This document shows positions 5,900 to 63,380 of a DNA stretch of 64,000 nucleotides, piece after piece. Where the stretch lies: positions 4,476,054-4,540,053 of the forward strand of contig BFEA01000003.1 in NCBI GenBank assembly GCA_003427395.1, in the 5' to 3' direction. This DNA is from Chara braunii. Taxonomy: Eukaryota; Plantae; Charophyceae. Position 1 is the first letter of the stretch, and every line of letters starts with the position of its first letter. The notes beneath the pieces were generated by a model. That model was given only the letters and a program-made list of their open reading frames with translations. It had not been told where the DNA came from and searched no databases. Both the position numbers and the translations under genes were made by a program.

Positions 5900-5939
<40 letters not shown>

Positions 5940-6181: not shown

Positions 6182-6237
<56 letters not shown>
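5900..6237 (-). repeat. (TA)n microsatellite containing nested 3' ends of the TA-family hammerhead element
   Basis: Segments 5938-6020, 6045-6060 and 6087-6188 are reverse complements of the 3' part of the 53520-53720 element. All share the same 3' end and have different 5' truncations. Confidence 0.8.
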
Positions 6238-23973: not shown

Positions 23974-23998
23974 TGGGGGATATGGGATGGATTCAGGA

Positions 23999-24822
23999 GG
24001 TGTGTGGGCCTGCGGCCCCCAACTCCGCGACTCTCCTGTTCAATCTGGCATCATCAATGGTATGAAAATCCTCAATTTTATTTGGACTTGACCTGTGCAG
24101 CAATTGGCCTATCAACAAACACAGTTGGTTTTTCCGTGCCCCGGTCACCACCAGCGGGCATCGACAGTTACCAAGTCGTTTCGGTAACATAACCGTTTCC
24201 GTCACGACTAGTCTCACCCCACTACTCCTCAACTCTTCTTCGCAGCCACGAATTCTCAACATCTACGGTTCATGAACTCCACACAATATTACCGGCAATT
24301 CACCTGAACCGTGACATCGACAATATGCACAACTCGGTTGGAGTTCGGACGAGGACCAAGGACTGCAACTTAAAGGTTTTTTTGGATCAGGACCACGACA
24401 TCAGCACGACGGAGTTCGGATCGAGACAAGGACTGCCAGGCAATTGGGTCAGGACCAGGGGCCAAGGAACTTACCCTGGATGCATTTGGACGTCTTTGGC
24501 TCGGATAACACTGCTCCCACTACCCGTGATGCGCAGGTTGCTGAACTTGGTGGATCTGCTGGACTTCCCTTGAACCTCCCTCGGCTGCCCATCTGCCAGC
24601 AACACTCAGCGCATACGTGAATCTGCAGTCACACAGTCATTCCCGTCAGCCAGTCTGAGGAGAGTCATTTCTCCTTCACCAATTTTGGCGAAGCAGTCCC
24701 TCCCACCCTCGATTTTCCCACGGTGTATGGACCTGTGACCCCCAACTCCATGACTCTCCTGTTCAATTTGGCATCATCAATGGTATGAAAATCCTTTATT
24801 TTATTTGGACTAGACATGTGCA
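23999..24822 (+). repeat. 3' split direct repeats B1-A2-B2
   Basis: B1 23999-24099 and B2 24722-24822 share GACTCTCCTGTTCAAT.TGGCATCATCAATGGTATGAAAATCCT. A2 spans 24098-24689. Confidence 0.85.
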
Positions 24823-29273: not shown

Positions 29274-31200
29274 TCAGGTAGCCTCCTCATCAGGATAACC
29301 CTTCCAACGTACGAGATACTCGACGTGGGTAGGGTTGTCGTTGGTGACTCGGCGACCAATGATGTCTGAAACGAGGAACTTCTCGTGGCCGTCCACCATG
29401 ATGGGTGGAGGGCGCTCATATGGTCGTTCGGCGAAACGCTCAGACGGTCTACGGTAAGGACGCAGTAACGAGACGTGGTAGATACCGTACACACGAGCCT
29501 GGCGTAGGTAGTCAGGCAGCTTCACACGGAAGCTAACCGGGCTAGATGCCATATCAGAACGGACGGCCTGGAGGATGCGGCATGGTCCAAAGAAGCGACG
29601 CCGAAACTTGCGAAGCGTGTCCGCTTCAATTGTAAGTGGCGGGCGTCGATAAGCACATCATCACCGACTTTGAATGGGTGATCCATCCTCGATCGGTTCG
29701 CACGTGCTGCCATGCGGGTCTGGGAAGCGGCTATGTGCTCATGTGCGGTCTTCATGATCGACGTCATGTGTGCAACCCAATCATCCAGCGCGGGACAACT
29801 CGTGTCGGGGTGCATCTGTGACGGTCGGAGGAAATCCTCGGGAACACGAGGGTGATAGCCGAGGTCGCAATAGTAAGGAGACATCCCCGTGGCTGGCGAG
29901 ATGGCGTGGTTGTGGGTTATGTCCGCGTGGGCAAGATGGAGATCCCACTGCTGGTCGTCACGAACAATCTTTCGGAGAATATCTCCGAGATTCTTGTTCT
30001 TGATCTCAGTCTGACCATCAGTCTGAGGATGGTGAGACGAGGAGAAGCGGAGCTGAGTGCCGTACACCTCGTGGAGTCGTCGCCAAAATCGGCTGGTAAA
30101 GCGCGGGTGACGGTCTGCAGTAAGGACGCAGTAACGAGATGTGGTAGACATCGTACACACGAGCCTGGCGTAGGTAGTCAGGCAGCTTCACACGGAAGCT
30201 GACCGGGCTAGATGCCGTATCAGAACGGACGGCCTGGAGGATGCGGCATGGTCCAACGCCGAAACTTGCGAAGCATGTCCGCTTCGAGTTGTAAGTGGCG
30301 GGCGTCGATAAGCATATCATCACCGACTTTGAATGGGTGATCCATCCTCGATCGGTTCGCACGTGCTGCCATGCGGGCCTGGGAAGCGGCTATGTGCTCA
30401 TGTGCGGTCTTCATGATCGACGTCATGTGTGCAACCCAATCATCCATCGCTGGATAACTCGTGTCGGGGTGCATCTGGAACGGTCGAAGGAAGTCCGCGG
30501 AAACACGAGGATGATAGCCGAGATCGCAATAGTAAGGAGACATCCCCGTGGCTGGCGAGATAGCGTGGTTGTAGGCTATGTCCGCGTGGGCAAGATGGAG
30601 ATCTCATTGCTAGTCGTCACGAACAATCTTTCGGAGAATATCTCCGAGAGTCTTGTTCTTGATCTCGGTCTGACCATCAGTCTGAGGATGGTAAGACGAG
30701 GAGAAGCGGAGCTGAGTGCCGTACACCTCGTGGAGTCGTCGCCAAAATCGGCTGGTAAAGCGCGGGTCACGGTCAGATATGATGCTCAGGGGTAAGTCGT
30801 GGTCACGCACGACTCGGTCAAACACGATGTCGGCGACCTCACGGGCACTGATGGCATAGCAGCACGGAACAAAGCGTGCACGCTTCGTGAAGCGGTCGAC
30901 GACGACCAGGATAGCATCATGACCGCGAGGGGTCGGAAGACGAAGGGGACCGATAAAGTCCATCAAGATGGACTGCCAACGACCCTCAGGGATAGAAAGA
31001 GGCTGGAGCAAACCATAAGGCAGGTGGTTCGCACCGTTCACCTCCTGACAGGTGGGACACTCTGCGACGTAGGCCTTCACAAAGTCCTTGCGCTTCGGTC
31101 AGACGTACCGGCGGCTCACACGAGCCAACGTCTTGTGGAAGCCCATATGACCGACGGCTGCCTGGTCATGGAACTCTGCTACTGCTTGGACACGTAGCTG
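29274..31200 (-). pseudogene. Ty3 integrase and chromodomain, with ~666-bp tandem duplication
   Basis: CPTCQ, MDFIGPL, ISDRDPRFTSRFW and HPQTDGQTE, plus chromodomain IIGRR..EYLVRWKGYPDEEAT. 29443-30108 is repeated at 30109-30775. Confidence 0.9.
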
Positions 31201-31530
31201 TCCAATGGAGGGAACACAAATACGAGGCTCTCTGGTGCCCTGTGAACCATGTCAGTACACAAGACCGTTTCCCCCGAGAGAGTAGTTCGGGATGGTCTTG
31301 CCACTCCGAAGGGTCGCGTGGATGTCGCGATAGTCGGGGTAGTGGCGGTACTGAGTGCGAAACTCGTCGATCATTGAGTGGTGGACGGTGGTGACCGAGA
31401 TGGAAGAGAGCTGGATCTGCTCCTGGTCGTGGTCAGGGCGCCGGGATAAGGCATCTGCGACCAGGTTAGTCTCACCCTTGATGTGCTCAGTGGTGAAACT
31501 AAACTCGGATAGGTCGCGCCACCAACGAGC

Positions 31531-33760
31531 CTATCGAGGAGTGAGCTTCGGTTTTGTCAGAAAAGCCTGGACAACAGAGTTGTCCGTACGCACCGTGAAT
31601 GGTGCCCCGTGCAGGTAGTGACGCAAGTGCCGAGCAGCATAAACTACTGCGAGAACCTGACGTTCATTAGCAGTGTAGTTTATTTCGGCGGGCAGGAGTT
31701 GACGGGAGTAGAAGGCTATCGGACAATCACCTGAGCGAGACTCGACAGTGCTGTCATCGGCGATGGTAGGAGAATAGTCAATAGAAGGTTCGTCAGTAGG
31801 TGGACGAGTAGGCGTCAGTCGGGAAGCAGTGGTAGGGGTAGGTGGTGGGAAGAGAGGGATACGAGGATGAGAGGAATCAAGAGAGGAGGGAAAGACCTGA
31901 GAAAGCACTGCTCCTACAGCAAAGTCTGACGCATCGGTGGTAAGGATAAAAGGGTGATCAAAATCGGGTAGGTGAAGAACCGGTGCGCATGTCACCGCCT
32001 TCTTGAGGGCGCGGAAGGCGTCCTCGTGGAGGGGTGTCCAAGCCCAGGGTGGGTTCTTCCAGAGGAGGGTGGAGGTAAGGACGTAGGAATACCAAGCGTA
32101 TCCCCGGATGAAATTACTATAGTAGCTGGTTAGGCCTAGGAAGTTGCGAAGCTGCTTGGCAGATGTGGGAGCGGGCCACTCCGCAATAGCAGTGATCTTC
32201 GCGTCATCCATGTGGAGACCCTGGTCAGACACGTAGTGTCCTACGAAATTCACTTTGTGCTGGGCAAAGCGGCACTTGCTCAGCTTGGCATAAAAGCTAT
32301 ATCTGCGCAAGCGGTCAAGGACGTCGCGGAGGTGTCTGCGGTGCTCCTCAAGGGTACGACTGTAGACCAGGATATCGTCGAGGTAGACGAGAATGTACTG
32401 CTCCAGGATGTCCCTGAAGATGTCGTTCATCGCCCTCTGGAAGGTGGCGGGTGCATTGGTGAGGCCGAATGGCATCATCGTAAACTCGTAGTGGCCGAAG
32501 CGCGATCGGAACGCTATCTTCGGCTGGTCGGCTGCAGCGACGCGGATCTGATGGTAACCGCTACGAAGATCAATCTTCGTAAAGAAGCGGTTGCCTGCTA
32601 GGCGGTCGAACAGCTCAGCGACGCGGATCTGATGGTAACCGCTACGAAGATCAATCTTCGTAAAGAAGCGGTTGCCTGCTAGGCGGTCGAACAGCTCATC
32701 AGAACGAGGCATGGGGTAGCTGTTCTTAACCGTGTGGCGGTTGAGACCGCGATAGTCGATGCAGAGATGGAGAGTTCCATCCGCTTTGCGAGCAAAGAGG
32801 ACGAGTGCACCCCACGGGGAGTTGCTGGGTTTAATGAAACCCAGTCTCAGGAGCTCCTCAAGCCGATGCTTGAGTTCGGTGGCCTCGGGGATCGAGAGTC
32901 TGTAGGGTGCCTGGTCGTGAACACGATAGTCAGGCACAAGCTGAATGGAGTGCTTGACGTCACGCATCGGTGGGATGCCGACGTACGAGAACGACGATGG
33001 AAAAACGTCGTGGTACTCTCGGATGAGGTCACGAACTGCGGGCTCCAGGTCAACCGTATATCGTGCGAGTTCCTCAGCGTCAGCGTCAGCGCCCGACGAC
33101 GGGGTGGGCTCGACGGACGGCGGAGGGACGGAAGTAGAGATGGGAGCCATGGAGATAGAAGGAGGATCTGGCTCCAGAGGGAGGAGCTCGGCGTCGGGAC
33201 AGGGTGGATCATAGTGTAAGAGATCCGTCACGTTCACCATAAAGAAGGTGACGTCGTCCTGTCGGAGGAAGTGGGCGAACTGCCAAGGCGAAGTGACAGT
33301 GATAGAAGGAGATGGTGTGGGCACAGAAAGCTCCGGGAGAGGAGGATTGGGGCGTGGTGTCGCAGTGGTACCTATAAAAGGTACGCGATACGTCTGTCCA
33401 CAATTCGTTTTGAGAACGAGAGTGTTGGTCGCCCAATCGGCCTCAGTGCTGCGGAACAGACGAGACCACGGAGTGCCGAGAATGGAGTCGTACCCCGTCT
33501 CCATCACATCAAAATATGCAGAGGAGCGGTGGCGACGAGACGCCAGGGAACGATCAGTCGGCTCCAGAGTGAGGAAGAAAGGGAGGTCGGTGACCGTCTG
33601 ATCGAAGAAGCGTTAGGTCTTGTCATCCCCTAAGGTAACGGAGATGGGAGTCGGAGACCCTGTCGTGGGTAAGCGAGCTTCTTTCACCACGCGTGGGTGA
33701 ATGAAGTCGCCCTGAGAACCGGAAACCCACAGCGCGGAGTACACCCTCGTGGAGGTCCCG
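31531..33760 (-). pseudogene. Ty3 protease, RT and RNase H
   Basis: Degenerate protease ALW(V)SGSQGDFI. RT motifs LCIDYRGLN, KIDLRSGYHQIR, MPFGLTNAPATFQ and YLDD. RNase H motifs TDASDFAVGAVLSQ and TDN. Confidence 0.92.
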
Positions 33761-34599
33761 AGTCGTAATGGGATGATCGGGAGGGTGCGATCAGGGTCAG
33801 AGAGGATGGCGAGAAGGCGACACAGTGCAGCGACATGGAGGGTGAGTCGCTCCTGACGAGCCTGGAGCATGCTCAAGTCTAGAAGAGAGGACACAACGTC
33901 CTCGCGAGTCACGAGCTGCTCGCTGCAACGGGCTGAGCGAATGGCTCGACGCGTCGGTAGTCGCGGCGGGGAAGGAGGGGAGACGGTGGTCTGCGGAGGC
34001 GTAGACGGTACTGCGACAGAGGGCTGAGTACACTCTGTCGAGTCCTGCGATACCTCAACTCCAGTAGCGAGAGGGGCGAACNCCTGCGATACCTCAACTC
34101 CAGTAGCGAGAGGGGCGAACCGCGATGGAGATGTCGGGAAGCCCACTACTGAGGAGGGCGCAGGTGTACACTGCACCGTGGCTAGGAGGCACCGCGGGGA
34201 TGCGAGGCGCCGGGGGGGGACTGAGCACGACGCTGGCGGGAAAGGTCAGCGTAGTGGCGGTCAAGGGCGGTGGTATAAGGGCACCGCGAGGAGGTATGAC
34301 CATCTTGACGGCATCGCAAACACCCGCGTCAGCCCATAATAGTCGCGCGCTCCTCGGCGGAAAGGACACCGCGAGGAGGAACAAAGCCCTGAGGGAGGTC
34401 CTGCTGAGGGACCTCGGGGGGCGATGCGCTAGCGTGACCAGGGCGGCTGCGTGCCTGGGAAAGGGTGGAAAGGATAAGCTGGAGGCGCTCAGCCATAGGG
34501 AGAGTAGGGTCCTCCAGGTGGTGGTGGACGGCATCGCCGAGGTCGAGGTCGGCGCTATGGTCACCCTCTGGTGACAGCGGGGCACCAGCGTCCTGCTCA

Positions 34600-36263
34600 C
34601 CATACTCGAGCGCGCTGAAGCGGCGCGAGAAGTGGCGGCCCTGCTGCGTGGAACGGCGGGGGCGACCATGGAAAGGCGAACGGCGCTAGGAAGTGTCGTG
34701 AGAGGAGGAGGAGGCGTAACCATTACGCTATGGCTGGGAGGAGGAGGCGGGGTGAAGACGGGCCCGCATCCGCCGATGGTCTGTGGCGGCCTCGTAAGCC
34801 TGCGGGGCCGATGAGAACTCGTACCGCCATAGCTCGGAGCGGTACTCGAGCGGAAGGCTGGCCAAGAAACGATCGATAAGGGCCGCCTCGGGGAGGAACG
34901 CCACGTCACAAATGAGGCGGGCGTCCTAAAAGACCTGGATGTGGCGATCCAGACCGGCAGCGCCACCAGAGCCGGACCAGCGTGTAGTGACGACATGCTC
35001 GAAGGTGTCAGTCATGTCGTATCGGGCTCCGAAGCGATCCTCGAGGAACGCCTAGAAATCCATGAAGGTCGGGGTCCAACCCTCACGAAGGGAGTACGCG
35101 TAGAAATCCTCCCAGGCCTCGAAAGGACCGCCACGTAGGCGCGTGGAGAGGTGACCCACCCACGTGTCGGGTGTGGCGCCCATGAGCTGGAGCGTGCGGG
35201 TGGTAGATTGCAGCCACCTAGACACGCATATGCCTGTACCGTCATACAAGGCAATGTCCGACAAGCGGATGAGTGGTGCGCCACCGTTTTAGCGGCGAGG
35301 GGATCGAGGAGCAGGGGACTGCGCTACGCCTGAATAAGTTGGCGCAGGTCCTGGAGGAGGGGGGGCACCTGACTGTACGCCCGGGCCACATGGTGGAGCG
35401 GCATGGGAAACAGTGGCAGGCTGCGCGGGAGCTGCGGTAGAAGAGGTCGCAACAACCGAGGGGATGGGAAGGAGGTAGGATGGGGATGGGTAGGGTGCAG
35501 GGCGAGGGAAGCGAGCCTGCATGGAAGGAAGAATAGAGGAAGAAGGGGGTGCACCGGAAGGCGCGGCCACCTGTGAGGGTGGGGGTAGCTGAAGGCGTGA
35601 GAGGGCGAGGTCAGTCCGGAGCTGGGCGATCTCGTCCTCGCAACCTCGAACGTAGGTTGAGCGAGGTATGGCAGGGGGAGACGCACGAGCGGCGCGAGGC
35701 ATCCCACAAGGGGTAGAGTCAGATGGCGTTGTGGTCGTGCGAAGAGGAGGGAGAAGTGGGGCACCCGGAAAAACTGCGACCTTGGTAGTGGGTTGTAGTA
35801 CCGTGGTCGTAGTGACCGAGGTCTGGGCGGGTGCGCCCGTAGACTGAGGGAGGACCTGACTCGTGGCGGCCGTCGTGCTAGGGGCGTGGACGGTCACCAA
35901 GATGGTCGGGTCAGGGGCGGCGGAGGAGGAAACTCCACCGTGGCCACCCTGTTGGAGGACGGGGGATCCGAACTGGGAGCCAGGAGAAGAGATAGGGTGA
36001 GGAGAGGAAGGACGACCAGCGTCCTGGAGTTGCCCCACGCCGGCGACAAGGATCGCCACCTGTGCCTGTAAGGGCGCGAGGGTTGTGAGTTGCGCCTGGA
36101 TGGGGGCAAGGGTCACGAGTTGCGTCTGGATGGGCGCAAGGAGGGAGGTGAGGAGGGTGTGCAGATCCCCCTGGGGCTGATGGCCTTGGTCCGTCGGCAC
36201 GGGTGTGGAGCCCGATGTCGTGGTCATCGCCGTGTCGGTGGCGTGTGACACACCGTCGGCCAT
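34600..36263 (-). pseudogene. Ty3 gag (frameshifted), Pro/Thr-rich N-terminus
   Basis: ORF 35289..36263 starts at ATG 36263. ORF 35052..35264 (WLQS..WVGHLSTRLRG..W..F) resembles retrotransposon gag, and the region lies upstream of the protease. Confidence 0.6.
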
Positions 36264-38408
36264 GGGGAGATGACGGACCGGATTGGAGGGGGCCAGAAGA
36301 GGTCCGCGTGAGCGGAGGGCGTAGGGGGAAGTCCGAGGTAGAAAGCGGCGAACGGTGCTAGCAAGGCTAGCGCGGGCGCCGTCAAAGGGGGAGGGGTGGT
36401 TCGGGTCCAGGGTGCCCGAAGAGGACGGGGAAGTAGGGGCGGGTTTTGAAGAACCCTAAACCCTAAAAAAAACCTAAGAAAACCCTAACCGAAGTTTAAG
36501 TGGTTAGGGTAGGGTACTGGTGACCTAATCAAGAAAGTAAAATAGCGAGCATAGGGGGGGGAAGGCGGGAGAAAAATAAATAAACTGCGAGATTTCGAGA
36601 GAAAATAAAAATAAATAAGGAAATAAATAAATAATAAAAATAATTAAATAAATAAGTAAAAAGATGTGAAGGGAAAACAATATTTATTTTTTTGAAATTT
36701 TCGGCAGTATTTCCCGACCCCCCACTTGGTCAAGAATGTGCCAAGGGGAAAGGAGAGACCAAGGTGAGCACACTAGGTGTCAATATGCCGCAAAATAAAA
36801 AAAGAAATTTCAAAGAATAAATAAAGAAATAATAAATAAATAAATAAATAAATAAGTAAATAAGTGGATGAGGAGGTGGGGGGGAATGAAGTATCTAATT
36901 TGTCAAAAATTTTGGCAGCATTTCGTTACCCCCATGGGGTGGAAGTGTGCCGAAAAAGACTAAGGAAGGGAAAATCAGAAAATTTCGGCAGTACTTCGTT
37001 ACCCCCACGGGGTCAAAACGTGTGCCGAAAGCAAGAAAGACTAACACCTAATCAGATTTAGGGTTGCCGTAGAGAAAATCAAATTTTCAAAATAAATAAA
37101 ATAAATAAATAAAATAAATGAGAAAATGAGAAAAGAAGGTGGGAAAGAAGATATTTCGAATTTTTGGAAAAATATATATATTTAAAAAAAAAAAACAGAA
37201 AAATTGAAGTTGGGGGGGAAGGGGGGATGAGAAAGTGATGGAGAGAAGAAAAAAATAGGTGGGAAAGGGAAAAAGATGGAAGTGGAAGGTGGGGGAATGA
37301 TGTGGTGGCAGCTGGGGGAGAGGAGGATGAGAGAATGGGAGAGAAAAAGGATGGGGAAAGATGGAGAGTGATCAAGAAACTAATAGGACAGGAGGAGAGA
37401 AAAGAAAAGAAATGAAGAAAAAGGGGGTAAGATAGTGGTTAGTGGGAGAAAAGGTGGGGTGGGGAAGGTAAAAAGAGGAGGGGAGAGAGGCAGTGGAAGG
37501 TGGGGAAAGAAAAGGGGAGAGAGAGATAATACCTGCCCCTTGGTGTCTCCAAGGGCACAAGGTATACCAAGACCAGGAGGGTCTTGGCCTTCGCTGCAGC
37601 CAACCAACTGGAGGGTGTAAGGGGGCTGAGATCTTGATCAGCCCCTAGTTGCAGCACAACAAATCCAGGGTGTGCCGTGTGAGCATACCCTGATGGGTGA
37701 TGATGATGATGTAGGGTTGGCTGAGATCTAGATCAGCCACCCTACTGCCGCAGTCACACAGCCCCCTAGCCGGGGGGAAATCTTGAGCTGATGCGAAGCT
37801 GCTGAAAAAAAATAATAATAATAATGCTGTGGCGCAGCCCCCTAACCAGAGGGGTCTTCAGTCCACAGCAAAGTGCCACGTGGCACTGCAGGTGGCCATG
37901 TGCACAGGCAGCAGCAGCCACGGGGGGGGGGGTGGGGGTAAATAGCAGTCTCTCTCGTTACTGCCTCACTGGCCGCTGCTCGCTGCTCGGCGGGGGGGGA
38001 GGGTAAATAGCCAGCACCTCTTCAACACGAGGTTGCCGTGTTACAAGGTTATGTATAGACTGTGGCCAGTGTGTTATGAGGGTGATACACGCACGCGCAT
38101 GGCCAACAGATGCCTGGGTTCAAACCCCAGCGACAGCATGCATCTCGGATCTTAATTAATATAATTCGGGAGTGGGGCGGGGCGGGGCAGCATGGCGCGT
38201 CTGCGTGTGCGGCGGCTTTGGCCTTGGCGCTTCCACGCATATGTCATGATGACTTCCCCTTTTTTGCCACGTATCGATCTCCTGCTGCAGCACCTTTTTC
38301 CCGCTTTTTCGCCCGAAAACGCCCGAGAAACAGCCGAAAACCCGACTGTCGGGTTTTGATGTTTTTCCCTGCTGTGCAGTGTGGTGGGTGGGAGTGGGGA
38401 ACGTTTCC

Positions 38409-39858: not shown

Positions 39859-41611
39859 TCTAAGGAAAAAGGAACACAAAAGACAGAAAGATGAAAGAAG
39901 GGAAAACGCCAGCTGCCGCCCAAAAGAACCAATTCCAAATGACCTCTACCGTTTGCCATGACCCTTCTACCTACTGGTCTTAGGCGCGCCTGCGACCTCA
40001 CCCTTCCCTGGTACCCCGCTGACGCCCTCTAAACCCCGGTTCCTCGACGAAGACATTCCCCAAAGAAAGCTGCACTCAAGCGCAGCCCTCCTGGCTGCAA
40101 AATGATAATGAAAAGGCCTGAAAGGCCGTCCTGTCCAGACAGATTTGTCAGGTAATTGAGTTGGTTGTGGCCGATGATGCATGGCTGGAGGAAGAGCCCT
40201 TCGGTTGGGCATCTCCCACTGGCTGGGGGCCAACTTGCAATCTCTTCATTGTGAGGTAGCTATGCTTGCAGGGGTTCCCTCTATATGGCCTTATAGTAGA
40301 GGTAGGTAGTGAAAAGCAAAAATAATTTGGCCTTAGGAGTAGAGGTGGGCAGTGAAACGCAAAAATAATTTGCGAGAAGAGTATAGCATTGTAACTGTAG
40401 TTCTTTTTTTTTTTATAAGAAAAATTCCCAGACCGATTAGGCAGGTATGTGCGTGGGACGTTGAGGGTGCGTGCGACCTCGACGGCCTCGCTGCACTTCG
40501 CACAAAACAAACAAAACGTTTGAAATGGCGGGTGTATATCTTCGGCTAAAAAGTGGAAAAATACACCTTTTTTTTTTTTGGGGGGGGGGGCCGCCTAAAT
40601 GTTTGAAATGGCGGGCGCATATCTTCGGCTAGAAAGTGGACAGTGGAAAGATACACCCTTCGCCTTTCATACCTTTTGTCCTTTCCACATTTGGTGATTG
40701 GTGCGGCGAGGCTCCGAGCCACAGCAGGAAGGCTGCTACGTAGTGCATGCAGTTCTTTCTTTTCGTTGTGCATGCAATTCTACGTCGTGCATGGATACCG
40801 TTCGTAGATCAGATGCGACATGATTGCAACATAGGGCGGTACAGATACCACCAGATTCCACCACAGCACGGACGGAGAGGTACTGACCGTAGATTGGCTT
40901 GGTTTTCGATCCCCGACCCGGCGTCCGTCTTTCCGTTTCCTTCTCCCTCCTCTCTTGTCCACCGTCCTTTTTCCATCCCTCCTTCCTCTCTCCTCCTCTC
41001 TCCTTCTCCATCCTCCTTCCTCCTCCCCCTGGTTTCTCAACGTTCCTCCTCCTCCTGCCTTTTCTGTTGTCCTCATCTATATCCTCGCTTCCTCGCCCCC
41101 CTACTTCATTCTCCCATCTGCTACGTGCTCGTTCCCTCCCATTCCCTCTCTAAGACAATCGCTTGCGGCACGTGGCACTTTTTTTTTTTTGTTGTTCTCC
41201 TGCACCCTTTCTTCGTTGGTCCGCTCCATCCCACCGGACCTCCTCCTAAACCCAATCAAACACCCCCCCCNNNNNNNNNNNNNNNNNNNNNNNNNNNNNN
41301 NNNNNNNNNNNNNNNNNNNNNNNNNNNNNNNNNNNNNNNNNNNNNNNNNNNNNNNNNNNNNNNNNNNNNNNNNNNNNNNNNNNNNNNNNNNNNNNNNNNN
41401 NNNNNNNNNNNNNNNNNNNNNNNNNNNNNNNNNNNNNNNNNNNNNNNNNNNNNNNNNNNNNNNNNNNNNNNNNNNNNNNNNNNNNNNNNNNNNNNNNNNN
41501 NNNNNNNNNNNNNNNNNNNNNNNNNNNNNNNNNNNNNNNNNNNNNNNNNNNNNAACCATCACATCTCCCCTCCAGTGTGCTGGCAAGCTCTGCGCTGACA
41601 CGAGCAGGATA

Positions 41612-43228
41612 ATGGCTTCCGCTAGCCGAGCGCGGGCGCCGCTTTCCCGGGCGGCGAGGCAGTTCTACCGCTGCACCGCTGGCAGCGCCATTCCCACAGC
41701 TGCCGATTCCAGCGCCACCCATGGCGCGTTTCTTCTCAATGTCAACTCCCGCCGTGGATTTGGCGTTGGCGGGAACCGATTGACTTGTTTTTCGATCTCC
41801 GGCGCGCGGCACTTCGCCTCCGATCCCGCCGAAAATGACGTTCTGGTGGTTGGCGGCGGCCCCGGTGGGTACGTGGCGGCAATCAAGGCCGCTCAGCTGG
41901 GCTTGAAGGTCACATGCGTGGAAAAGCGCGGCACTTTGGGCGGCACCTGCTTGAATGTGGGCTGCATCCCTTCGAAAGCACTGCTGCAATCGTCTCACAT
42001 GTATCACGATGCCAAGGAACGATTCGCTAGTCACGGCGTTCAGGTCAGCGATGTCAAGATCGACGTGGCGGCAATGATGAAACAGAAAGAAGGTGCTGTC
42101 AGCGGACTGACCAAGGGTATCGAGGGGTTGTTCAAGAAGAACAAAGTGACCTATGTTAAGGGCGAGGGCAGGTTGACTTCGCCGAATGAAGTGACGGTGA
42201 GTCTGCTTGAGGGGGGGGAGAAAGCCATGGGCGCTAAGCACATTATCATCGCGACGGGGTCGGATGTGAGAGCGTTGCCTGGCGTGCCGATAGACGAGGC
42301 GAAGGTGGTGTCGTCCACTGGCGCGCTGCAGCTGACAGAGGTACCCAAGAAGCTGGTCGTGATTGGGGGCGGGTACATCGGATTAGAGATGGGGTCGGTA
42401 TGGGGACGGTTGGGATCGGAGGTGACGGTGGTGGAGTTTGGGGAGGCCATCGTCCCGACGATGGATAGTGAGCTGCGGCGCGCTTTTCAACGCTCTCTGG
42501 AGAAGCAGAAGCTGAAGTTCAAGCTGAAGACGAAGGTGGTGGCCGTCGACACGAGCGGCGATGGCGTGGAGTTGACGGTCGAGCCGTCGGCCGGCGGAGC
42601 GCAGGAGAAGATGCACGCGGATGTTGTGCTCGTCTCGGCGGGACGTGTGCCGTTTACCAAGAACCTTGGGCTTGAAAACCTAGGTATACAGACGGACAAG
42701 GGGGGGAGGATCCTCGTGGATGAGCATTTCCGCACGAATGTGCCCTCCGTGTATGCCATCGGGGACGTGATTCCAGGGCCGATGCTAGCGCACAAGGCGG
42801 AGGAGGATGGTGTTGCGTGCGTGGAGTTGATTGCTGGAAAAGCAGGGCACGTGAATTATGACACCGTGCCGGGGATTGTCTACACCCATCCTGAAGTAGC
42901 TATGGTGGGCAAAACGGAAGACGAACTCAAGGCCGCCGGAGTCGAGTACCGCGCCGGGAAGTTTCCTTTTATGGCAAATAGTAGAGCTCGGACGATCAAT
43001 GATGCGGAGGGAATGGTGAAGATTCTCGCAGATAAGAAAACGGATAAGGTGCTGGGGGTGCACGTGATGGGACCCAACGCGGGGGAGCTGATTGCGGAAG
43101 CCGTGCTGGCTATGGAGTACGGTGCATCGAGCGAGGACATCGCCCGAACCTGTCACGGCCATCCCACGTTGAGCGAGGCGATGAAGGAAGCAGCCATGGC
43201 GACTTATGACAAGCCTATTCACATCTAA
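41612..43228 (+). CDS. mtLPD: mitochondrial dihydrolipoamide dehydrogenase (E3 / glycine cleavage L-protein), 538 aa with presequence
   Basis: GGGPGGYVAAIKAAQLG FAD motif, GGTCLNVGCIPSK redox disulfide, GGGYIGLE NAD motif and HPTLSE catalytic dyad. The N-terminal presequence is Arg/Ala/Ser-rich. The ORF is uninterrupted; the start is the first ATG after the N gap. Confidence 0.96.
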   Translation: MASASRARAPLSRAARQFYRCTAGSAIPTAADSSATHGAFLLNVNSRRGFGVGGNRLTCFSISGARHFASDPAENDVLVVGGGPGGYVAAIKAAQLGLKVTCVEKRGTLGGTCLNVGCIPSKALLQSSHMYHDAKERFASHGVQVSDVKIDVAAMMKQKEGAVSGLTKGIEGLFKKNKVTYVKGEGRLTSPNEVTVSLLEGGEKAMGAKHIIIATGSDVRALPGVPIDEAKVVSSTGALQLTEVPKKLVVIGGGYIGLEMGSVWGRLGSEVTVVEFGEAIVPTMDSELRRAFQRSLEKQKLKFKLKTKVVAVDTSGDGVELTVEPSAGGAQEKMHADVVLVSAGRVPFTKNLGLENLGIQTDKGGRILVDEHFRTNVPSVYAIGDVIPGPMLAHKAEEDGVACVELIAGKAGHVNYDTVPGIVYTHPEVAMVGKTEDELKAAGVEYRAGKFPFMANSRARTINDAEGMVKILADKKTDKVLGVHVMGPNAGELIAEAVLAMEYGASSEDIARTCHGHPTLSEAMKEAAMATYDKPIHI

Positions 43229-44802: not shown

Positions 44803-47367
44803 AAACTCATCGTATTTGTAGTTCGTACTCGACGGTAAGAAGAACAGCAGCAGACACTGGATCGGCGTGTTATAAGCAAGGCCCACTATAATTGAGAAAT
44901 TGACACGAGCTATTAACCATGTGTGCTATAATGGGGCATAACTCTTCTTGGAAAAAGAAGAAAGAAAGAAGAAAAAAACGCACGTGATCACAAATGATCA
45001 GGCTAGACTGCCGTTGAAGAGACCGAATCAACCCTGGGCGAGTAGAGGGAGGAAAAGAAAAGAGAAAGGGGGAAAAGTATCCCCATACCGGTGTGGATTT
45101 TTTGTTCACAAAAGGGTGAATCAACTCTACCTGGTAGCAACGGGTCACGCCACGGTTTTGACTCGACTCGGCACTTTGAAGACTTTTTTTTCGAGTCAGT
45201 CGTGTTCGCGAGAATTGAGTTTCACGATTACGAGTACGATTTCTTTTCTCTTGCGTCGGTGTCTCTCTCTCTCCTCCCCCGTTTTTCTATACCTCTTCTC
45301 CCCCTCTCTCCTCTCTCCTCTTCCTCTCCTTCCCTTTCTCTACACCATTGGTCGTGTGTGTGGTCGTATTGTCGCATTGTTGAGTCATGCTATGTGCTAC
45401 TATTTGCGTTGTCGCCGACAACAAATCTATCATGGCAGTAGGCGTCGCCCTCCCTTGAAGTCTCTTTGCTGCTGCCACTGCATAATAGGTACTAACCGAT
45501 TTTTTTAATTCTAAAAATGACAAAAATCGATTATATAATCTGCATTCGCTTACATGACTGGATGATGACGGTGATCCTTTTCGATTATATAATAGGTATT
45601 AATTATTGTCATTTTTATAATAAAAAAAGAATCGAATCCCTATCCATAGGATGCCGAAGCCTGGCAGGTCAGTCCGGCCTCACAAATGATATTCCAGCCA
45701 GCCAAGTGATCAGTAGGCAGAAGCACGTTCAATGAATCTACGTCTTTCGGCCCTCCGTTTTTTATTTCTTCTTCCGTGGGGGTAATAGCAGTCCAATCCG
45801 CTCATTTCAAATGGAAAGTACGCGCTCGCTGGGTATCAATGCATAAAAGAGGGGAGAGGATGGAAAGGGGGAGGGGGTAAAGGGGAAGGGTTAAACGGGA
45901 AGGGGGACGGGGGAAAGGGGAAGGGGATGGGGGAAGGAAGGGGGGGGGGGGGGGGAATCGTTCGTCATCGTAATGACCATTATTAACAGGAGGGGAAAAG
46001 GAGGGATGAGGATGACAACGGAGACAAGGAGGAAGTGGCGTGGGTGAAAAGAGGTAGGAGGAGGAGGAGGAGGATGAAAAGGAGGAGGAGGGGGAGTGAG
46101 AAGGGGGAAATGTAGGATGAATACAAGGAGGAGGGAGGAGGAGGAGGATGAAAAGGAGGAGGAGGTGGGGGATTATGAGACTGAAATAGGAAGGGTAGAA
46201 GTGGACGAGAAGATGATCAAAAGGGGAAAGTGAATGAAGGAAAGGAGAGACGAGAAGTATAAGAGCTGCCGTCGTCACCTTAATAGAACGCCCGGTGATT
46301 ATAGCCGTATAGGGTGCAATTTTCAGTCCAGATACAGCTATAATGATCGGGCGTTCTATTCGGGTGAAGACGTGGGGAAGAGGGGGGGGGTGGGAGAGGT
46401 AGTTACAGAGACGGGACACAATATAGACGAGCATAGATAAAGCCCTCAGTACGTCTTAGCATCTCTTCTCTAGAAATCTCTATTTTCTGTACAAGGGGAC
46501 GCTGGATCCGATTTCCAGCACGTGCTGCTCCCAACCAATAGAATGGAGCCAGCAGGTGGGCCGCCAGTGGTAGGGGCTCGTATCACCACCGCTAGCGGTG
46601 CCAACTGGTGTTTGTTTCCTCCCCCCCAAAAAAAAAAAAGAAAAAAGAAGACGAAAATTATAACGGAAAAGGGGAGGAGGAGGAGGAGGAATGATGAGAA
46701 CAAATAGGAGGCCTCGTGGACACTCACCTATGATGTACCCCCATTCGCCCCCCCCCCGGTTCGTCCCGCCACACACACACACACAGAGAACACACACACC
46801 CATTGAGAGAATGAAAAGCTAGGTCCACTGATCAGGCTTTCTCTCCGGCCAACTCGTGAACTGGGCCAGCATGTGAACGGGAGACTTAGAATTGCGTTTC
46901 AGCATCTATCTGTGAGAAGGGGGCGAGAGAGAAAGAGAAGCGAAGAGAAGAGAAGAGAGTGGGAGGAGCTGGGTGGGCCGGAGGGAGCGGGTTAGAGAGG
47001 AGCAGAGGAGGGGAGATGATAACCGGGAGGAGTACAGACTTGGCTCGGGTATCCGTATGTTGAAGCAGTGGATGGGAAGAGGTGTAAGGAACAAACACAA
47101 GAGGGTAGGTGGGAACAAGGTGAGGGTAGAGAGAGAGAGAGAGAGAGGAGAGGAGGAGTCCGGAGTGGAGCAGGATGGTTGGCGGACCTTTCTGAAAGCT
47201 TCCTGCTTCCTTTGTTATCGCACCCACGTTCCGGCCGCTGATGCCCTCCCTTGTGTTGACCGGATCACATGGTGATGGTGACATGGGTGGAGTTCTGTAG
47301 GCAATCGACCTCTCAGAGGAAGAGGAGAGGAAAAGGTGCAGGGGAGAATTTCCTTTACTCTCTCTGT

Positions 47368-47424
<57 letters not shown>

Positions 47425-47427
<3 letters not shown>

Positions 47428-47755
47428 GTCATGTGCGCTATAAATGACTTTAGTAAAGAATGGTGACTGTGCCAGACTCTTTCACCGGACTTTCACCGAC
47501 TCATCAGGAGTTTGAACCCCGACAGTCAGTCTCCCCAGGATGCATGTGACTGATGCATAAGGAAGGACTCACCACATCGCCCAGAGTTAGCGACACCCAT
47601 CCCTGAGAGAGAAAAGTGGTCGACTTTACTCACACCAACCAACCCTGCAATCCTGGCAGACTGTCGGTCCAAACTCCTGACAAGAATGGAAAGTAAGTCT
47701 GAGAAGCTCATCTGTCACAGCCCCACAACCCACTGTACGCTCCCACTCAGCCATA
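47425..47755 (-). mobile_element. ~330-nt non-coding hammerhead element (CA family) between (GT)n tracts
   Basis: Reverse complement is colinear with 50405-50708 and ends ATGACAA(CA)n. Contains the HHR at 47473-47527. Confidence 0.75.
47473..47527 (-). ncRNA. type III hammerhead ribozyme (degenerate)
   Basis: Minus strand reads GACTGTC-GGGGTTCAAACTC-CTGATGA-GTCGGTGAAAGTCCGGT-GAAA-GAGTCTG. Confidence 0.75.
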
Positions 47756-47846
47756 TTTCTGTGTTTGTGTGTGTGCGTGTGTTTGTGTGTGGGCGTGTGT
47801 GTTTGTGTGTGCGTGTGTGTGTGTGCGTGCGTGTGTGTGTGTGTTT

Positions 47847-47878
<32 letters not shown>

Positions 47879-47937
47879 CTGTGTGTGTGTGACTGACCGG
47901 TAATCTGTACACACCCACTCAGCCATATCAGCCATAT

Positions 47938-47988
47938 GTTTCACGGGACTTTCACCGACTCATCAGGAGTTTGAACCCCGACAGTCTG
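47938..47988 (-). ncRNA. type III hammerhead ribozyme, partial tandem copy, stem III truncated
   Basis: Minus strand reads CAGACTGTC-GGGGTTCAAACTC-CTGATGA-GTCGGTGAAAGTCCCGT-GAAACA. Confidence 0.7.
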
Positions 47989-48129
47989 CCCAGGATGCAT
48001 GTGACTGATGCATGTGACATGCATCAGCCATATGTGTGTATGTGTGGGACCACTAATTTCGTAGTAACTGGGATTTATTGTAACTGCTGGAATTTAAGAC
48101 CAGCATTCTCGGAGGTTCATTTCGTTGTC

Positions 48130-49186: not shown

Positions 49187-50404
49187 TAGCTTCAAGTATG
49201 GCCATGGAATTCTGATTTGCATTCATGGTAGCAATTGCTTCAAAGCATTTTTTCATTTTTTTAATAACGCGGCACTTTGCGAATATGTTGTGCTGTCGAT
49301 GGGGGGTGGGGGAAGTAGATGGGCGGCACAGCTACTGGCAAAATNNNNNNNNNNNNNNNNNNNNNNNNNNNNNNNNNNNNNNNNNNNNNNNNNNNNNNNN
49401 NNNNNNNNNNNNNNNNNNNNNNNNNNNNNNNNNNNNNNNNNNNNNNNNNNNNNNNNNNNNNNNNNNNNNNNNNNNNNNNNNNNNNNNNNNNNNNNNNNNN
49501 NNNNNNNNNNNNNNNNNNNNNNNNNNNNNNNNNNNNNNNNNNNNNNNNNNNNNNNNNNNNNNNNNNNNNNNNNNNNNNNNNNNNNNNNNNNNNNNNNNNN
49601 NNNNNNNNNNNNNNNNNNNNNNNNNNNNNNNNNNNNNNNNNNNNNGGTTCCACCCTGCTCCCTGATCACCGCTGATTAGGGCGGGGGGGCAACATGCATC
49701 CCCTTAATTGTGAGAGGAAGATATGCTTGCAGGGGTCCCCTGTTTAGGCTCAGGAGTAGTGGTCTGTAGATAGTGGGGGCACAATTGCCAGGATTCTGAA
49801 TGCATCTGCACGTGAAACATGTCCATGTGTATTTTCAGTATTGACCGGTGGCAAGTGGTTCAACTAGGGCTTATAACTGACCGTCGATGATGTACGTTTT
49901 TCGTTTTTTTGGCAGTTCGGAAAATAGTGGGCCTCCGACGTTTCAGCAGGTTGAAACAAAACGACGGCCGCGGATCAGATTTATCAACGGCAGCCGTTGT
50001 CGGGCCCGGCCTCCTAAAAGTTCGGGAATAGGCTAAAAAAAAACTTGTCGAAACGGCGAAGGTACTACAGGTTTAAGCTATATGTTCTCCTCTCAATTTC
50101 ACCTTTCAGTACGTACCACTACTCCTAAGCCGATACAGGTGACCCCTGCAAGCATAGCTCACCTGTTACAGTTAAGGGGATGCACGTTGCCCCCTGCCGT
50201 AATAGGTGGTTGTCGGGGAGTAGGGGGGGTGGGTGCCTGTGGGGGTGGTTGGCTAATGCCAAGAACGAGCGCATTTTGTCAGTAGCTGCTCCTCCCAACT
50301 ACTTCCCGCGCCCCCATCAAGTAACAGTCGTGTCTATGGCCAGCACTCTCCAACACACCTCACACAACCTACCCACCCACACACACACACACACAAGCAC
50401 ACAC

Positions 50405-50708
50405 ACAGTGGGTGTGTAGAGTGGGTTTTATGACTGTATCAGATCAGTTTCTCATACTTACTACCGATCTTGTCAAGGGTTTGGACCAGGTTCAGACCTG
50501 CTAGGTAAAGTGTTGTGAGTAAAGTGGGGACCACTTTTCTCTCTGAGGGGTATTGCTAATTGTGGGCAATGTGGTGAGTCCTTATCCATCGGTCAAATGA
50601 ATCCTGGGCAGACTGTCAGGGTTCCAACCTCCTGATGAGTCAGTGAAAGTCCGATGAAACAGTCTGGCACAGTCGTACTCTTTTTGAGTGTATAGTGAAT
50701 ATGACAAC
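50405..50708 (+). mobile_element. ~300-nt non-coding hammerhead element (CA family) between (CA)n tracts
   Basis: Homologous to 47425-47755, bordered by (CA)n on both sides, with an HHR at 50609-50666. Confidence 0.75.
50609..50666 (+). ncRNA. type III hammerhead ribozyme
   Basis: CAGACTGTC-AGGGTTCCAACCTC-CTGATGA-GTCAGTGAAAGTCCGAT-GAAA-CAGTCTG. Confidence 0.75.
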
Positions 50709-53378: not shown

Positions 53379-53586
53379 TTGCTCCACTACTGTCATTTTG
53401 ACTGGATGAAATGCTCTGATCTTAAAATATATAACCGTAGGCAGAGAGGGAGAAGAGGACAACAAACGAGGGGCTGTGGCAAACTGTTTCGTCGGAGTTT
53501 ATATGTATATATGGGTGAGTGATAGTCTACTTTGATTTTGGTTAAGGTAGATTATCATTTACAGTGTAATCAGTGAGGGGATTCTG

Positions 53587-53644
53587 CAGACTGTTGAGGG
53601 TTCAGCCTCCTGATGAGTCGGTGAAACTCCGATGAAACAGTTTG
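53587..53644 (+). ncRNA. type III hammerhead ribozyme in TA-family element (53520-53720)
   Basis: CAGACTGTT-GAGG GTTCAG CCTC-CTGATGA-GTCGG TGAAACT CCGAT-GAAA-CAGTTTG. Confidence 0.8.
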
Positions 53645-53841
53645 TCACATCCCCTCGTTTGTTGTCCTTTTCTCTCTCTCTGCCTACGGTTTACCAGGCA
53701 GTTCTATTTGTGACGATATATATATCATATATCTCTGTTTGTTACGATATATATATATATATATATCGTCATATATATATATCGATATATATCGTCATAT
53801 ATATCGTCATATATATATATATCGTCACAAACAGATATATA

Positions 53842-54918: not shown

Positions 54919-55157
54919 GATATATATATGAGTCGGTGAAACTCTGACGAAACAGTTTGTCACAGCCCCTCGTTTGTTGTCCTTTTCTCTCTCTCTGCCT
55001 ACGGTTTACCAGGCAGTTCTGTTTGTGATGATATATATACATATATCTCTGCCTACGGTTTACCGGGCAGTTCTGTTTGTGACGATATATATATATAAAA
55101 TCTCATCTCTTCCTGGATAGGTGCCGTAGAAAAGAAGATTTGGGTCACACTCGTACA

Positions 55158-62700: not shown

Positions 62701-63263
62701 GCAATTGTTCGCTACATATGCAGAACATGGTCCTCCTGAAGGGTTGTGTTTCCCTACACTTATAGAAATCGCTATTCGGCGCGCAGCGTTTGGCCCGCCC
62801 GAGGCCTACCGGCCGACGGCCCGGATTTCCGCGCGATCTTAAGACTTTAAGACTTTAAGACTAAGATCGCGCGGCGATCCAGGCCGTCCGCTTTGACAAA
62901 CTTCCTGGATCGCTGCGCGATCTAAGAGTCTTAAGATTCAGATCGCGCGGAAATCCGCCGGCCCGGTACCAGTTGGCCAACGGCCCAGATTAGCCAGGCG
63001 TGGGAAAAAACCGGTTCCAGGGGGGCTGGTCTCCTATAGGGCGCAGCGGTTCGGCCCCCGCGCATGTCTTCGGCGGCGCACGGAGCCTGTGTATTGCGAA
63101 CGAGACAGCACTCACTCACACGGCCGCCCGCCCGCCGGCCCGCCTGCCCGCGTGAACAAGCACATGCACAGACTCACGCATATGCACACATGCACGCGCA
63201 CACACGCACATGCGCTCACGGACGGACACGCACACACGCACGTGCAAGCAAATGCATCATGGG

Positions 63264-63320
63264 CAGACTGTTGGGGTTCAACCTCCTGATGAGTTGGTGA
63301 AAGTCCAACGAAACAGTCTG
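63264..63320 (+). ncRNA. type III hammerhead ribozyme, best-preserved copy (GUU site)
   Basis: CAGACTGTT-GGGG TTCAA CCTC-CTGATGA-GTTGG TGAAAGT CCAAC-GAAA-CAGTCTG. All three stems pair, and the copy is flanked by CA-rich repeats. Confidence 0.85.
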
Positions 63321-63380
63321 GCAGAGTCGTGCTTTTTTGGGGGGGTTCACACAAACGCACGAACACAGGTGGGTGGGTGT

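What the first reader, a model, noticed from the sequence alone, without database searches (positions are those of the whole stretch)
47651..47701. Built-in anti-hammerhead strand: viroid-like rod that can switch the ribozyme off
Seen: in HHR polarity, the upstream segment CAGACTTACTTTCC..CTTGTCAGGAGTTTGGA-CCGACAGTCTGCCAGGA is complementary to almost the whole hammerhead. The differences in CTTGTCAGGAGTTTGGA versus TTCAAACTCCTGATGAG are all G-U wobbles in that polarity only. A homologous segment is at ~50445-50500. Inference: selection on RNA structure, giving a rod-like monomer or circRNA in which the catalytic core is sequestered, as in viroids and retrozyme circRNAs. It could alternatively be a relic of an opposite-polarity hammerhead.
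Basis: partly seen in the sequence, partly recalled or inferred. Interest (0 to 1): 0.75.

Follow-up and report, generated by a model that had tools for sequence, protein, structure and literature searches.

The report
Algal repeat masks its own ribozyme
A short, many-copy repeat, likely from a streptophyte alga, carries a self-cutting "hammerhead" RNA motif and, upstream of it, a worn inverted copy predicted to fold back and mask it; such masking is already known from plant retrozymes and viroids, and this repeat is likely a variant spread by Penelope-type jumping genes.

Summary
The complementarity is real. In hammerhead polarity 47651-47701 pairs with the type III hammerhead at 47474-47528 (-64.8 kcal/mol; shuffles -33.7 +/- 4.5, 0 of 1000). 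It is part of a longer arm (about 47640-47724), a decayed inverted copy of the whole ribozyme, so the ~325-nt element folds as a rod. The homologue at 50428-50506 is real and the arm occurs in hundreds of contigs (281 and 259 in two DNA runs). The G-U bias is suggestive only: 3:0 in the quoted core (p 0.125), 7 versus 2-3 for family-majority letters (p 0.09-0.17), no preference in the second copy, and a plain inversion nearby is also 4:0. No covariation, circle junction or piled cleavage ends were seen. This locus's own hammerhead is broken, and the minus-strand 'hammerhead' lacks G8 in nearly all copies. Best reading: a non-autonomous, (CA)n-embedded, Penelope (Chlamys)-type retroelement with a type III hammerhead held shut by a fold-back arm. 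Masking is published for plant retrozymes; the type III plus Penelope-like combination was not found in my searches. New variant of a known kind; interest 0.45.

The parts
47428..47755 (-). Element copy A, about 325 nt: 5' leader, anti-hammerhead arm, inner stem and apical hairpins, type III hammerhead, short T-rich tail ending ATGAC against (AC)n
   Evidence: 76.6% identity over 286 columns to copy B; common 3' end; 5' limit approximate, from read depth and loose ends
47640..47724 (-).
   Evidence: duplex -64.8 kcal/mol, 0 of 1000 shuffles; scored as a degenerate hammerhead on + at 47650-47684, E 5e-5; consensus rod of A and B
47537..47640 (-). Inner stem and apical region closing the rod
   Evidence: folds; inner arm of A 26 WC, 5 G-U, 1 A-C type, 5 transversions; the apical part alone is no more stable than shuffles (z +0.4)
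47474..47528 (-). Type III hammerhead of copy A, cut site predicted after 47521; damaged (G at 15.2, G-U at 10.1-11.1, weak stem I, 4-nt insertion)
   Evidence: Rfam RF00008 24.9 bits, E 0.034, below gathering 48.5; family-majority letters at 47479, 47484, 47485, 47511 are the canonical ones
47892..48034 (-). Rearranged, 5'-truncated copy A' upstream of A: 18-bp fold-back at its 5' junction, hammerhead without the 3' strand of stem III, then a piece of the element's 5' leader
   Evidence: (inverted repeat I2)
47760..47891 (.). (TG)n/(CA)n tract between A' and A
47365..47426 (.). (TG)n/(CA)n tract at the 3' end of A
47743..47753 (-). tRNA-type A-box-like 11-mer at the element's 5' end (lead only)
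   Evidence: 2 of 6 window matches are here and in A'; 2.8 expected by chance, 5 of 100 shuffles reach 6; consensus recalled
50408..50705 (+). Element copy B, between (CA)n tracts
50428..50506 (+).
   Evidence: duplex -46.6 kcal/mol, 9 of 1000 shuffles; 54 WC, 7 G-U, 5 A-C type, 5 transversions
50610..50665 (+). Type III hammerhead of copy B, cut site predicted after 50617; three transitions at CpG sites weaken stems I and II
   Evidence: RF00008 35.9 bits, E 2.7e-5, below gathering
63249..63338 (+). 5'-truncated copy of the same family: intact-looking hammerhead (GUU triplet), no arm
53586..53718 (+). Sister (TA)n-embedded family with a near-identical type III hammerhead and a different tail
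53433..53500 (-). Inverted 5'-truncated fragment of the sister family just upstream of its hammerhead copy: a fresh example of how an anti-hammerhead arm arises
   Evidence: 63 WC, 4 G-U, 0 A-C, 1 other over 68 ungapped pairs; raises the cost of the hammerhead fold from 2.3 to 31.7 kcal/mol

Best explanation
The segment is one arm of an imperfect inverted repeat in a short repeat family with a type III hammerhead; it is predicted to pair with the whole ribozyme and would keep the full-length RNA uncut, so that a Penelope-type (Chlamys) reverse transcriptase likely copies the element whole into (CA)n tracts. Shown: the inverted arm, the rod fold in silico, family-wide presence of the arm with differences from the hammerhead fixed before the family spread, (CA)n flanks, 5' truncation, a shared 3' end, and hammerhead-bearing RNA that crosses the cut site. 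Inferred: the arm arose by a fold-back or Penelope-type inverted insertion of the element's 3' part; its ribozyme core decayed while pairing was kept, largely through G-U; because it is transcribed before the hammerhead it would capture each strand as it emerges; arm-less (5'-truncated) transcripts or templates entered from a tandem neighbour would be free to cut. Mobilisation by Chlamys is inferred from resemblance. A circular intermediate is possible but not needed and not shown.
For: Duplex far beyond shuffles. One rod fits copies A and B, 45 arm pairs all kept as standard pairs. Arm in 281 (X2) and 259 (X8) DNA contigs. Family-majority letters at 47655 (A, 6812 of 7567 depth) and 47675 (C, 6633 of 7229) add G-U pairs in hammerhead polarity; by-hand tally 7 G-U against 2-3 A-C type, two of which are at CpG sites. 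Family-majority hammerhead is canonical (47479, 47484, 47485, 47511), so there is a ribozyme to mask in the source copies. Copy A folds better in hammerhead polarity (z -4.8 against -2.9). All 4 window copies of this family span the cut site, whereas 4 of 5 hammerhead-reaching copies of the sister family begin 3' of it (Fisher p 0.04, copies not independent). Penelope-like traits: microsatellite flanks, 5' truncations, adjacent inverted fragments, 3' ends in TGAC like Chlamys-1/-6 and PLE-X1 consensus ends (PMC8557442), and a Chlamys-2-like RT frame at 11431-13131. Same masking published for plant retrozymes (PMC4918200).
Against: G-U bias not significant (p 0.125 core; 0.09-0.17 family) and 4 of the 7 G-U differences sit in two CA/TG doublets that CpG decay could give. 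Copy B shows no polarity preference (z -2.4 against -3.2; 7:5) and its arm adds only about 2.4 kcal/mol against the hammerhead fold. No double compensatory change in the arm (0 of 45 pairs, 2 copies). Minority variants break pairs about as often as they keep them. A plain inversion in the sister family is also G-U only, 4:0. Known Chlamys hammerheads are type I, and the two stem II/loop 2 motifs of this family had 0 hits in that supplement. No piled read ends at the cut site. No genome was available to check ends, target duplications or an autonomous partner.
Confidence: 0.55

Rival explanations
1. The arm is a passenger: an old inverted duplication in the master copy, of the kind Penelope-like insertions routinely make, that decays without selection for pairing. 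Masking is then a by-product.
For: Inverted 5'-truncated copies are typical of these elements (PMC8557442). The window holds a fresh example, 53433-53500, that also blocks the hammerhead in silico and differs by G-U only. No significant G-U bias, no covariation.
Against: The arm's differences are fixed across the family, about a quarter of positions including gaps, yet the core-facing block 47651-47684 has 5 G-U and 0 A-C (p 0.03, block chosen after the fact). The sister family has a 22-bp hairpin with 6 G-U and 0 mismatches in hammerhead polarity (z -8.4 against -2.8; one copy), which suggests these elements evolve as folded RNA.
Confidence: 0.25
2. The element is the DNA copy of a viroid-like circular RNA with opposed plus and minus hammerheads (pelamoviroid-type hammerhead arm or carnation retroviroid); the minus ribozyme died after the RNA came to spread by reverse transcription.
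For: Size (rod about 265 nt), type III hammerhead and full opposed copy match the hammerhead arm and the 275-nt retroviroid (PMC8865084). The opposite strand keeps CUGA, GAAA, stem III and a 4-bp stem II that tolerates its one C-to-U change; copy B reads U3-A8, a natural core variant (PMC4209133). The stem II/loop 2 module occurs in 46 viral and metagenome loci.
Against: Any inverted copy keeps those motifs. G8 is replaced by A with C3 kept in the family majority (no variant row at 47682 at the 2% threshold, 40 of 43 rows shown), stem I is 2 bp, the minus arms do not fold better than shuffles (z +1.4, -0.2). The 46 loci match only the 28-41 nt around the core. No junction read.
Confidence: 0.1
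3. The element is a solo LTR of a plant-type LTR retrozyme, whose 300-400 bp LTR is known to hold both the type III hammerhead and its blocking strand.
For: Length, hammerhead type, position near the 3' end and blocked fold all fit (PMC4918200). Gypsy elements are in the window.
Against: No tRNA-Met primer-binding motif near any copy; copies are 5'-truncated, lie in microsatellites and have adjacent inversions, which fits target-primed insertion rather than integrase.
Confidence: 0.1

Closest known systems
Plant LTR retrozymes (Cervera et al. 2016, PMC4918200; passages and supplement search seen)
   Same: [quoted passage not shown]
   Different: No primer-binding motif, no two-LTR layout and no 4-bp duplication seen here; copies are 5'-truncated and sit in (CA)n; circular RNA not shown.
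Metazoan non-LTR retrozymes, non-autonomous derivatives of Penelope-like elements (PMC7229834, passages; bioRxiv 10.64898/2026.07.22.740005, first 10,000 characters and passages)
   Same: Short (150-450 nt) hammerhead repeats that depend on Penelope-like elements.
   Different: Those have type I hammerheads in tandem arrays and, per PMC7229834, are probably blocked by something other than self-pairing; here the hammerhead is type III, copies are dispersed and the block is a full inverted arm.
Chlamys and PLE-X Penelope-like elements of Chara braunii (Craig et al. 2021, PMC8557442; passages and supplement rows seen)
   Same: (CA)n and (TA)n targets, 5' truncation, adjacent inverted copies, 3' ends in TGAC, 3' hammerhead in some families.
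   Different: Their hammerheads are type I with a minimal stem III and other sequences; they encode RT; this element encodes nothing.
Hammerhead arm of pelamoviroids, ELVd central domain, carnation retroviroid (Flores et al. 2022, PMC8865084; passages seen)
   Same: Two opposed hammerhead copies base-paired to each other, inactive in the monomer; copy-back origin proposed.
   Different: There both polarities cleave and the RNA replicates as RNA; here the minus copy has lost G8 and the element is a dispersed genomic repeat.
Schistosome hammerhead SINEs (as reviewed in PMC6765202; passages seen)
   Same: Short retroelement with a hammerhead; this element has an A-box-like 5' motif and a T-run after the ribozyme.
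   Different: Those have type I hammerheads (type recalled) and a tRNA-derived promoter; no tRNA found here and no B box at the usual distance.

Membership tests
Type III hammerhead ribozyme (RF00008) | Core CUGANGA and GAAA, NUH triplet, three stems, open at stem III | tested here: met
   Complete in the 63260 and 53586 copies (17 of 17 pairs) and in family-majority letters; copies A, A' and B are damaged
Type III hammerhead ribozyme (RF00008) | Rfam gathering score 48.5 bits | tested here: not met
   0 gathering hits in the window; 35.9 bits (B) and 24.9 bits (A); the two best-preserved copies were not scored in E-value mode
Type III hammerhead ribozyme (RF00008) | Self-cleavage | not testable with these tools
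   No piled read ends in oligo-dT runs; needs an assay
Opposite-polarity hammerhead (viroid / retroviroid type) | Intact core and stems on the minus strand | tested here: not met
   A at position 8 with C3, stem I 2 bp, no stable fold
Opposite-polarity hammerhead (viroid / retroviroid type) | Circular RNA and multimeric minus strands | tested here: inconclusive
   No end-to-start joint among those shown (25 joints not shown); oligo-dT libraries and contigs are unsuited
Plant LTR retrozyme | Type III hammerhead in a 300-400 bp unit, blocked by a complementary strand | tested here: met
   (prediction only)
Plant LTR retrozyme | Primer-binding site after the 5' LTR | tested here: not met
   tRNA-Met-type 12-mer absent from the window; the one 8-mer match is at 3525; other tRNA types not tested
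Plant LTR retrozyme | Two LTRs around a 300-600 bp interior, 4-bp target duplication | tested here: inconclusive
   Only a rearranged partial tandem A'-A; flanks are microsatellites; no genome held
Non-LTR retrozyme | Type I hammerhead | tested here: not met
   Type III topology
Non-LTR retrozyme | Head-to-tail repeats with a complete hammerhead in each unit | tested here: not met
   A' and A are 459 nt apart but both damaged and the spacer holds a 132-nt microsatellite; holds for this window only
Non-autonomous Chlamys / Penelope-like element | Microsatellite targets, 5' truncation, adjacent inverted copies | tested here: met
Non-autonomous Chlamys / Penelope-like element | 3' end shared with an autonomous partner | tested here: inconclusive
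   ATGAC and GTGAC ends resemble published Chlamys-1, -6 and PLE-X1 ends by eye; only 4-8 nt
Non-autonomous Chlamys / Penelope-like element | Hammerhead of the pseudo-LTR type (type I) | tested here: not met
   File S2 rows against this family
tRNA-derived SINE | A and B boxes 30-60 nt apart in a tRNA-like head | tested here: inconclusive
   A-box-like at the 5' end; the only B-box-like match is hammerhead loop 1, about 225 nt downstream; no tRNA called

The most novel reading that the evidence does not exclude
The family descends from a viroid-like circular RNA with a pelamoviroid-type arm of two opposed type III hammerheads, captured by Penelope-like reverse transcriptase in a charophyte alga; the minus ribozyme survives as a pairing-only off-switch, making this a genomic intermediate between viroids and retrozymes in the algal relatives of land plants.
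Probability: 0.1. Interest if true: 0.8.

Novelty: new variant of a known kind. Interest (0 to 1): 0.45.

Why it matters
Retrozymes are currently split into type III/LTR (plants) and type I/Penelope-linked (animals). A many-copy type III element with Penelope-like insertion traits in a streptophyte alga would cross that split. A sister family shares the ribozyme but, in this window, has no family-wide arm, which offers a natural comparison for why hammerheads sit in these retroelements and whether masking decides which RNA gets copied. The masking itself is known, and this locus is a decayed copy.

Tried and rejected
Rfam at gathering threshold: 0 hits. No whole genome held, so no genome-wide alignment, R-scape-type test or target-site analysis. 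Family-specific 24-nt pattern: 0 hits in viral and 0 in metagenome contigs; a looser stem II pattern gave 4 and 42 loci that share only the core module. Run search: no RNA holder listed on record (not evidence either way). No piled read ends; no end-to-start joint among those shown. An apparent double change in stem II of the 63260 copy and in the apical hairpin sits at CpG sites and is not counted as covariation. A profile of five window hammerheads finds arm A but not arm B. Active minus-strand ribozyme rejected for present copies. Excision of a 459-nt monomer between A' and A rejected as unlikely: it folds as a rod (-137.3 kcal/mol), but both ribozymes are damaged. Literature searches for a description of this family found none; subscription journals and bioRxiv supplements were not seen, and the supplement table of PMC4918200 has no Chara row. 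Earlier-finding look-ups near this place, by sequence (twice) and by one word set returned nothing.

Full report
Setting. The window is eukaryotic and repeat-rich. It holds a Gypsy pol frame, a tyrosine-recombinase fragment and a dihydrolipoamide-dehydrogenase-like gene (the last name is my reading of the domains), and an RT-like frame at 11431-13131 with no Pfam hit whose nearest Atlas clusters are streptophyte and whose motif region resembles Chlamys-2_cBra. I infer a streptophyte alga, probably a charophyte. No genome is held, so family evidence comes from the window and two read lays.

Hammerheads. A core scan and a profile of five window copies find complete or near-complete type III hammerheads at 47474-47528 (-, A), 47933-47998 (-, A'), 50610-50665 (+, B), 63260-63328 (+) and 53586-53649 (+), and fragments at 54928, 6187, 53500 and 6020. 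Rfam scores A and B to RF00008 below gathering (24.9 and 35.9 bits against 48.5). They fall into two families by tail and flank: A, A', B and the 63260 copy lie in (CA)n-type tracts, and A and B end in ATGAC against (AC)n; the others end in GTGAC/GTGAT against (TA)n. Copy A is damaged: G at position 15.2 (47479), G-U at the base of stem II, a weak stem I and a 4-nt insertion. In DNA run X2 the majority letters at 47479 (134,535 of 142,677 depth), 47485 (168,820 of 174,335), 47484 (116,957 of 169,047) and 47511 (337,477 of 340,969) are the canonical ones (both families pile up there). A' lacks the 3' strand of stem III. B has three CpG-type transitions.

The observation. In hammerhead polarity 47651-47701 pairs with hammerhead A at -64.8 kcal/mol (shuffles -33.7 +/- 4.5, 0 of 1000) and with A' at -64.0 (0 of 1000); the B arm pairs with hammerhead B at -46.6 (9 of 1000). 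Among 11,925 windows of 51 nt it is the best partner that is not a hammerhead copy. A and B align at 76.6% over 286 columns and share one predicted rod in which the arm faces stem III, the cut site, stem I, both core strands, stem II and the 3' flank. Read on the other strand, the arm is a degenerate hammerhead (E 5e-5 for A; B not found). Complement of the whole ribozyme and relic of an opposite-polarity ribozyme are the same sequence statement; only the pattern of change can tell function.

Conservation. On 47640-47759, 281 contigs of X2, 259 of X8, 35 of X3 and 85 reads of X23 were laid; on the whole element 2980 contigs of X2 and 1933 and 4347 reads of X21 and X22 (6% and 12% of those runs read). 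Depth is no copy number, but the arm is plainly a family feature. The features that separate it from the hammerhead are nearly fixed: C at 47669 (T in 296 of 8662), C at 47681 and A at 47682 (no variant row at 2% for 47682; 40 of 43 rows shown). The arms diverged before the family spread.

G-U bias. Under a strand-neutral alignment the quoted core has 16 Watson-Crick, 3 G-U and 0 A-C-type differences (p 0.125). Whole arms: A against its own hammerhead 5:0, against A' 5:3, against B 5:2; B against its own 7:5; inner arms 5:1 and 3:1. Family-majority letters add two wobbles, 47655 A (6812 of 7567; 96 contigs) and 47675 C (6633 of 7229; 93 contigs). My by-hand tally for majority letters, using loose-end consensus of 0.63-0.66 agreement for the part beyond 47686, is 7 G-U against 2 or 3 of the opposite type depending on one gap (p 0.09 or 0.17); the block 47651-47684 is 5:0 (p 0.03, chosen after the fact). 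Against: four of the seven lie in two CA/TG doublets that decay of ancestral CpG could give; minority variants in X2 break pairs (47650, 47653, 47676, 47677: 6, 10, 7, 7 contigs) about as often as they keep them (47651, 47669: 7, 18 contigs; 47664: 16 contigs); and the inverted fragment 53433-53500, which looks like a plain insertion by-product, differs from its partner by 4 G-U, 0 A-C and 1 other in 68 pairs. Folding z-scores favour hammerhead polarity in A (-4.8 against -2.9) but not in B (-2.4 against -3.2). Of 45 arm pairs in two copies, 40 never vary, 5 vary on one side and none on both (no power). For: a 22-bp hairpin upstream of the sister-family hammerhead has 6 G-U and no mismatch (z -8.4 against -2.8), in one copy.

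Can it switch the ribozyme off? Forcing the hammerhead fold costs 37.4 kcal/mol in full A, 20.4 without the arm and 19.7 for the damaged ribozyme alone; in B 11.4, 9.0 and 5.9; in the arm-less 63260 copy 3.0; in the sister copy 2.3, rising to 31.7 with the upstream inversion (tertiary contacts not modelled). So the arm masks in A, adds little in decayed B, and any inversion masks. The minus-strand copy is not a ribozyme now: A at position 8 with C3, 2-bp stem I, no stable fold (z +1.4 and -0.2). B alone reads U3-A8, a natural variant (PMC4209133, passage), but its stems are broken.

RNA. In three oligo-dT runs the element is read on both strands. At 47658-47669 first mates on + against - are 37:28 (X21) and 104:86 (X22); across the arm in X23 about 49:8. 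If the library follows the usual convention, + mates mean hammerhead polarity; I did not calibrate this. Hundreds of reads run across the cut site (251 in X21, 639 and 255 in X22), no place shows piled ends and no end-to-start joint is among those shown (25 joints hidden). These libraries would miss circles, so this neither supports nor excludes them.

How it spreads. Microsatellite flanks, 5' truncations, an 18-bp fold-back at the 5' junction of A', adjacent inverted fragments and TGAC ends match the traits of Chlamys elements (PMC8557442). No tRNA-Met primer-binding motif is near. All 4 window copies of the arm-bearing family span the cut site; 4 of 5 sister-family copies that reach the hammerhead begin 3' of it, and 345 and 678 reads in X21 and X22 run from loop 1 into A/T-rich, (TA)n-like sequence (low agreement, 0.45; Fisher p 0.04, not independent, and the sister tail is longer). 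This fits protection of the full RNA by the arm, but weakly.

Mechanism. Most likely (0.55): an inverted copy of the element's 3' part was fixed in a master copy; transcribed first, it would capture the hammerhead strands as they emerge, leaving uncut RNA for target-primed reverse transcription by a Chlamys-type RT; its core decayed while pairing was largely kept. Rivals: unselected passenger inversion (0.25), captured two-ribozyme viroid-like RNA (0.1), solo LTR of an LTR retrozyme (0.1).

Known context. Current classification ties type III to LTR retrozymes and type I to Penelope-linked ones (bioRxiv 10.64898/2026.07.22.740005; PMC7229834; PMC7761336). The Chara Chlamys hammerheads listed are type I, and the two stem II/loop 2 motifs of this family had 0 hits in that supplement. 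Five paper searches found no description of this family. The stem II/loop 2 module is common in unrelated contigs (46 loci, matches of 28-41 nt). An earlier AI note from another piece of this genome reports a type III pair 272 nt apart from an abundant transcribed family; I could not link it by sequence.

Verdict. Real feature, known principle, apparently undescribed family and combination, function untested, this copy decayed. New variant of a known kind; interest 0.45.

Noticed in passing
window 53433-53718; fragments at 5931-6187 (-) and 54928-55091 (+): Sister family with a near-identical type III hammerhead, an extended stem III, a pyrimidine-rich tail ending GTGAC/GTGAT in (TA)n, and many copies truncated inside the hammerhead 3' of the cut site. 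It supplies most hammerhead reads in the RNA runs (loose ends of 761 and 1692 reads).
   Followed up: partly
window 53515-53562 (+): Unbroken 22-bp hairpin with 6 G-U pairs and no mismatch in hammerhead polarity (z -8.4), just upstream of the sister-family hammerhead; one copy only.
   Followed up: partly
window 47743-47753 and 47915-47925 (-); 47508-47518 (-): A-box-like motif at the element's 5' end, B-box-like look of hammerhead loop 1 about 225 nt downstream, and a T-run after the ribozyme: possible RNA polymerase III unit, lead only.
   Followed up: partly
window 47502-47563: A rearranged form skipping 60 nt with 9 other letters is seen in RNA (15 and 18 reads, almost all one direction; depth 818 in X1) but not in DNA run X2; likely one expressed variant copy read antisense to the hammerhead.
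   Followed up: no
window 10111-14523 and 15105-16458 (-): Chlamys-2-like Penelope element with a partial tandem duplicate (91% over 1357 nt); no hammerhead core found at its end by the motif scan.
   Followed up: partly
window 40835-43228 (+): Long uninterrupted frame for a pyridine nucleotide-disulphide oxidoreductase (dihydrolipoamide dehydrogenase-like) with an N-terminal extension, among repeats.
   Followed up: no
window 3672-4388 (-): Glycosyl hydrolase family 88 fragment (E 4.7e-29) in repeat-rich DNA; origin not examined.
   Followed up: no
window 22861-24039 (-) and 29522-36455 (-): Tyrosine-recombinase fragment (weak, DIRS-like by inference) and a decayed Gypsy pol region.
   Followed up: no
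window 49650-49763 and 50115-50228: 115-bp inverted repeat pair, 81% alike, about 350 nt apart, just upstream of copy B; possibly a small DNA transposon.
   Followed up: no
L008, L010, L012, L013, L015, L016, L017, L025, L040, L046: Metagenome contigs of 1.2-3.1 kb with a type III-like hammerhead and a second core motif on the opposite strand about 675 nt away; others near 1.8 kb carry the match twice in one contig (L034/L035). They look like viroid-like circles unrelated to this element.
   Followed up: no
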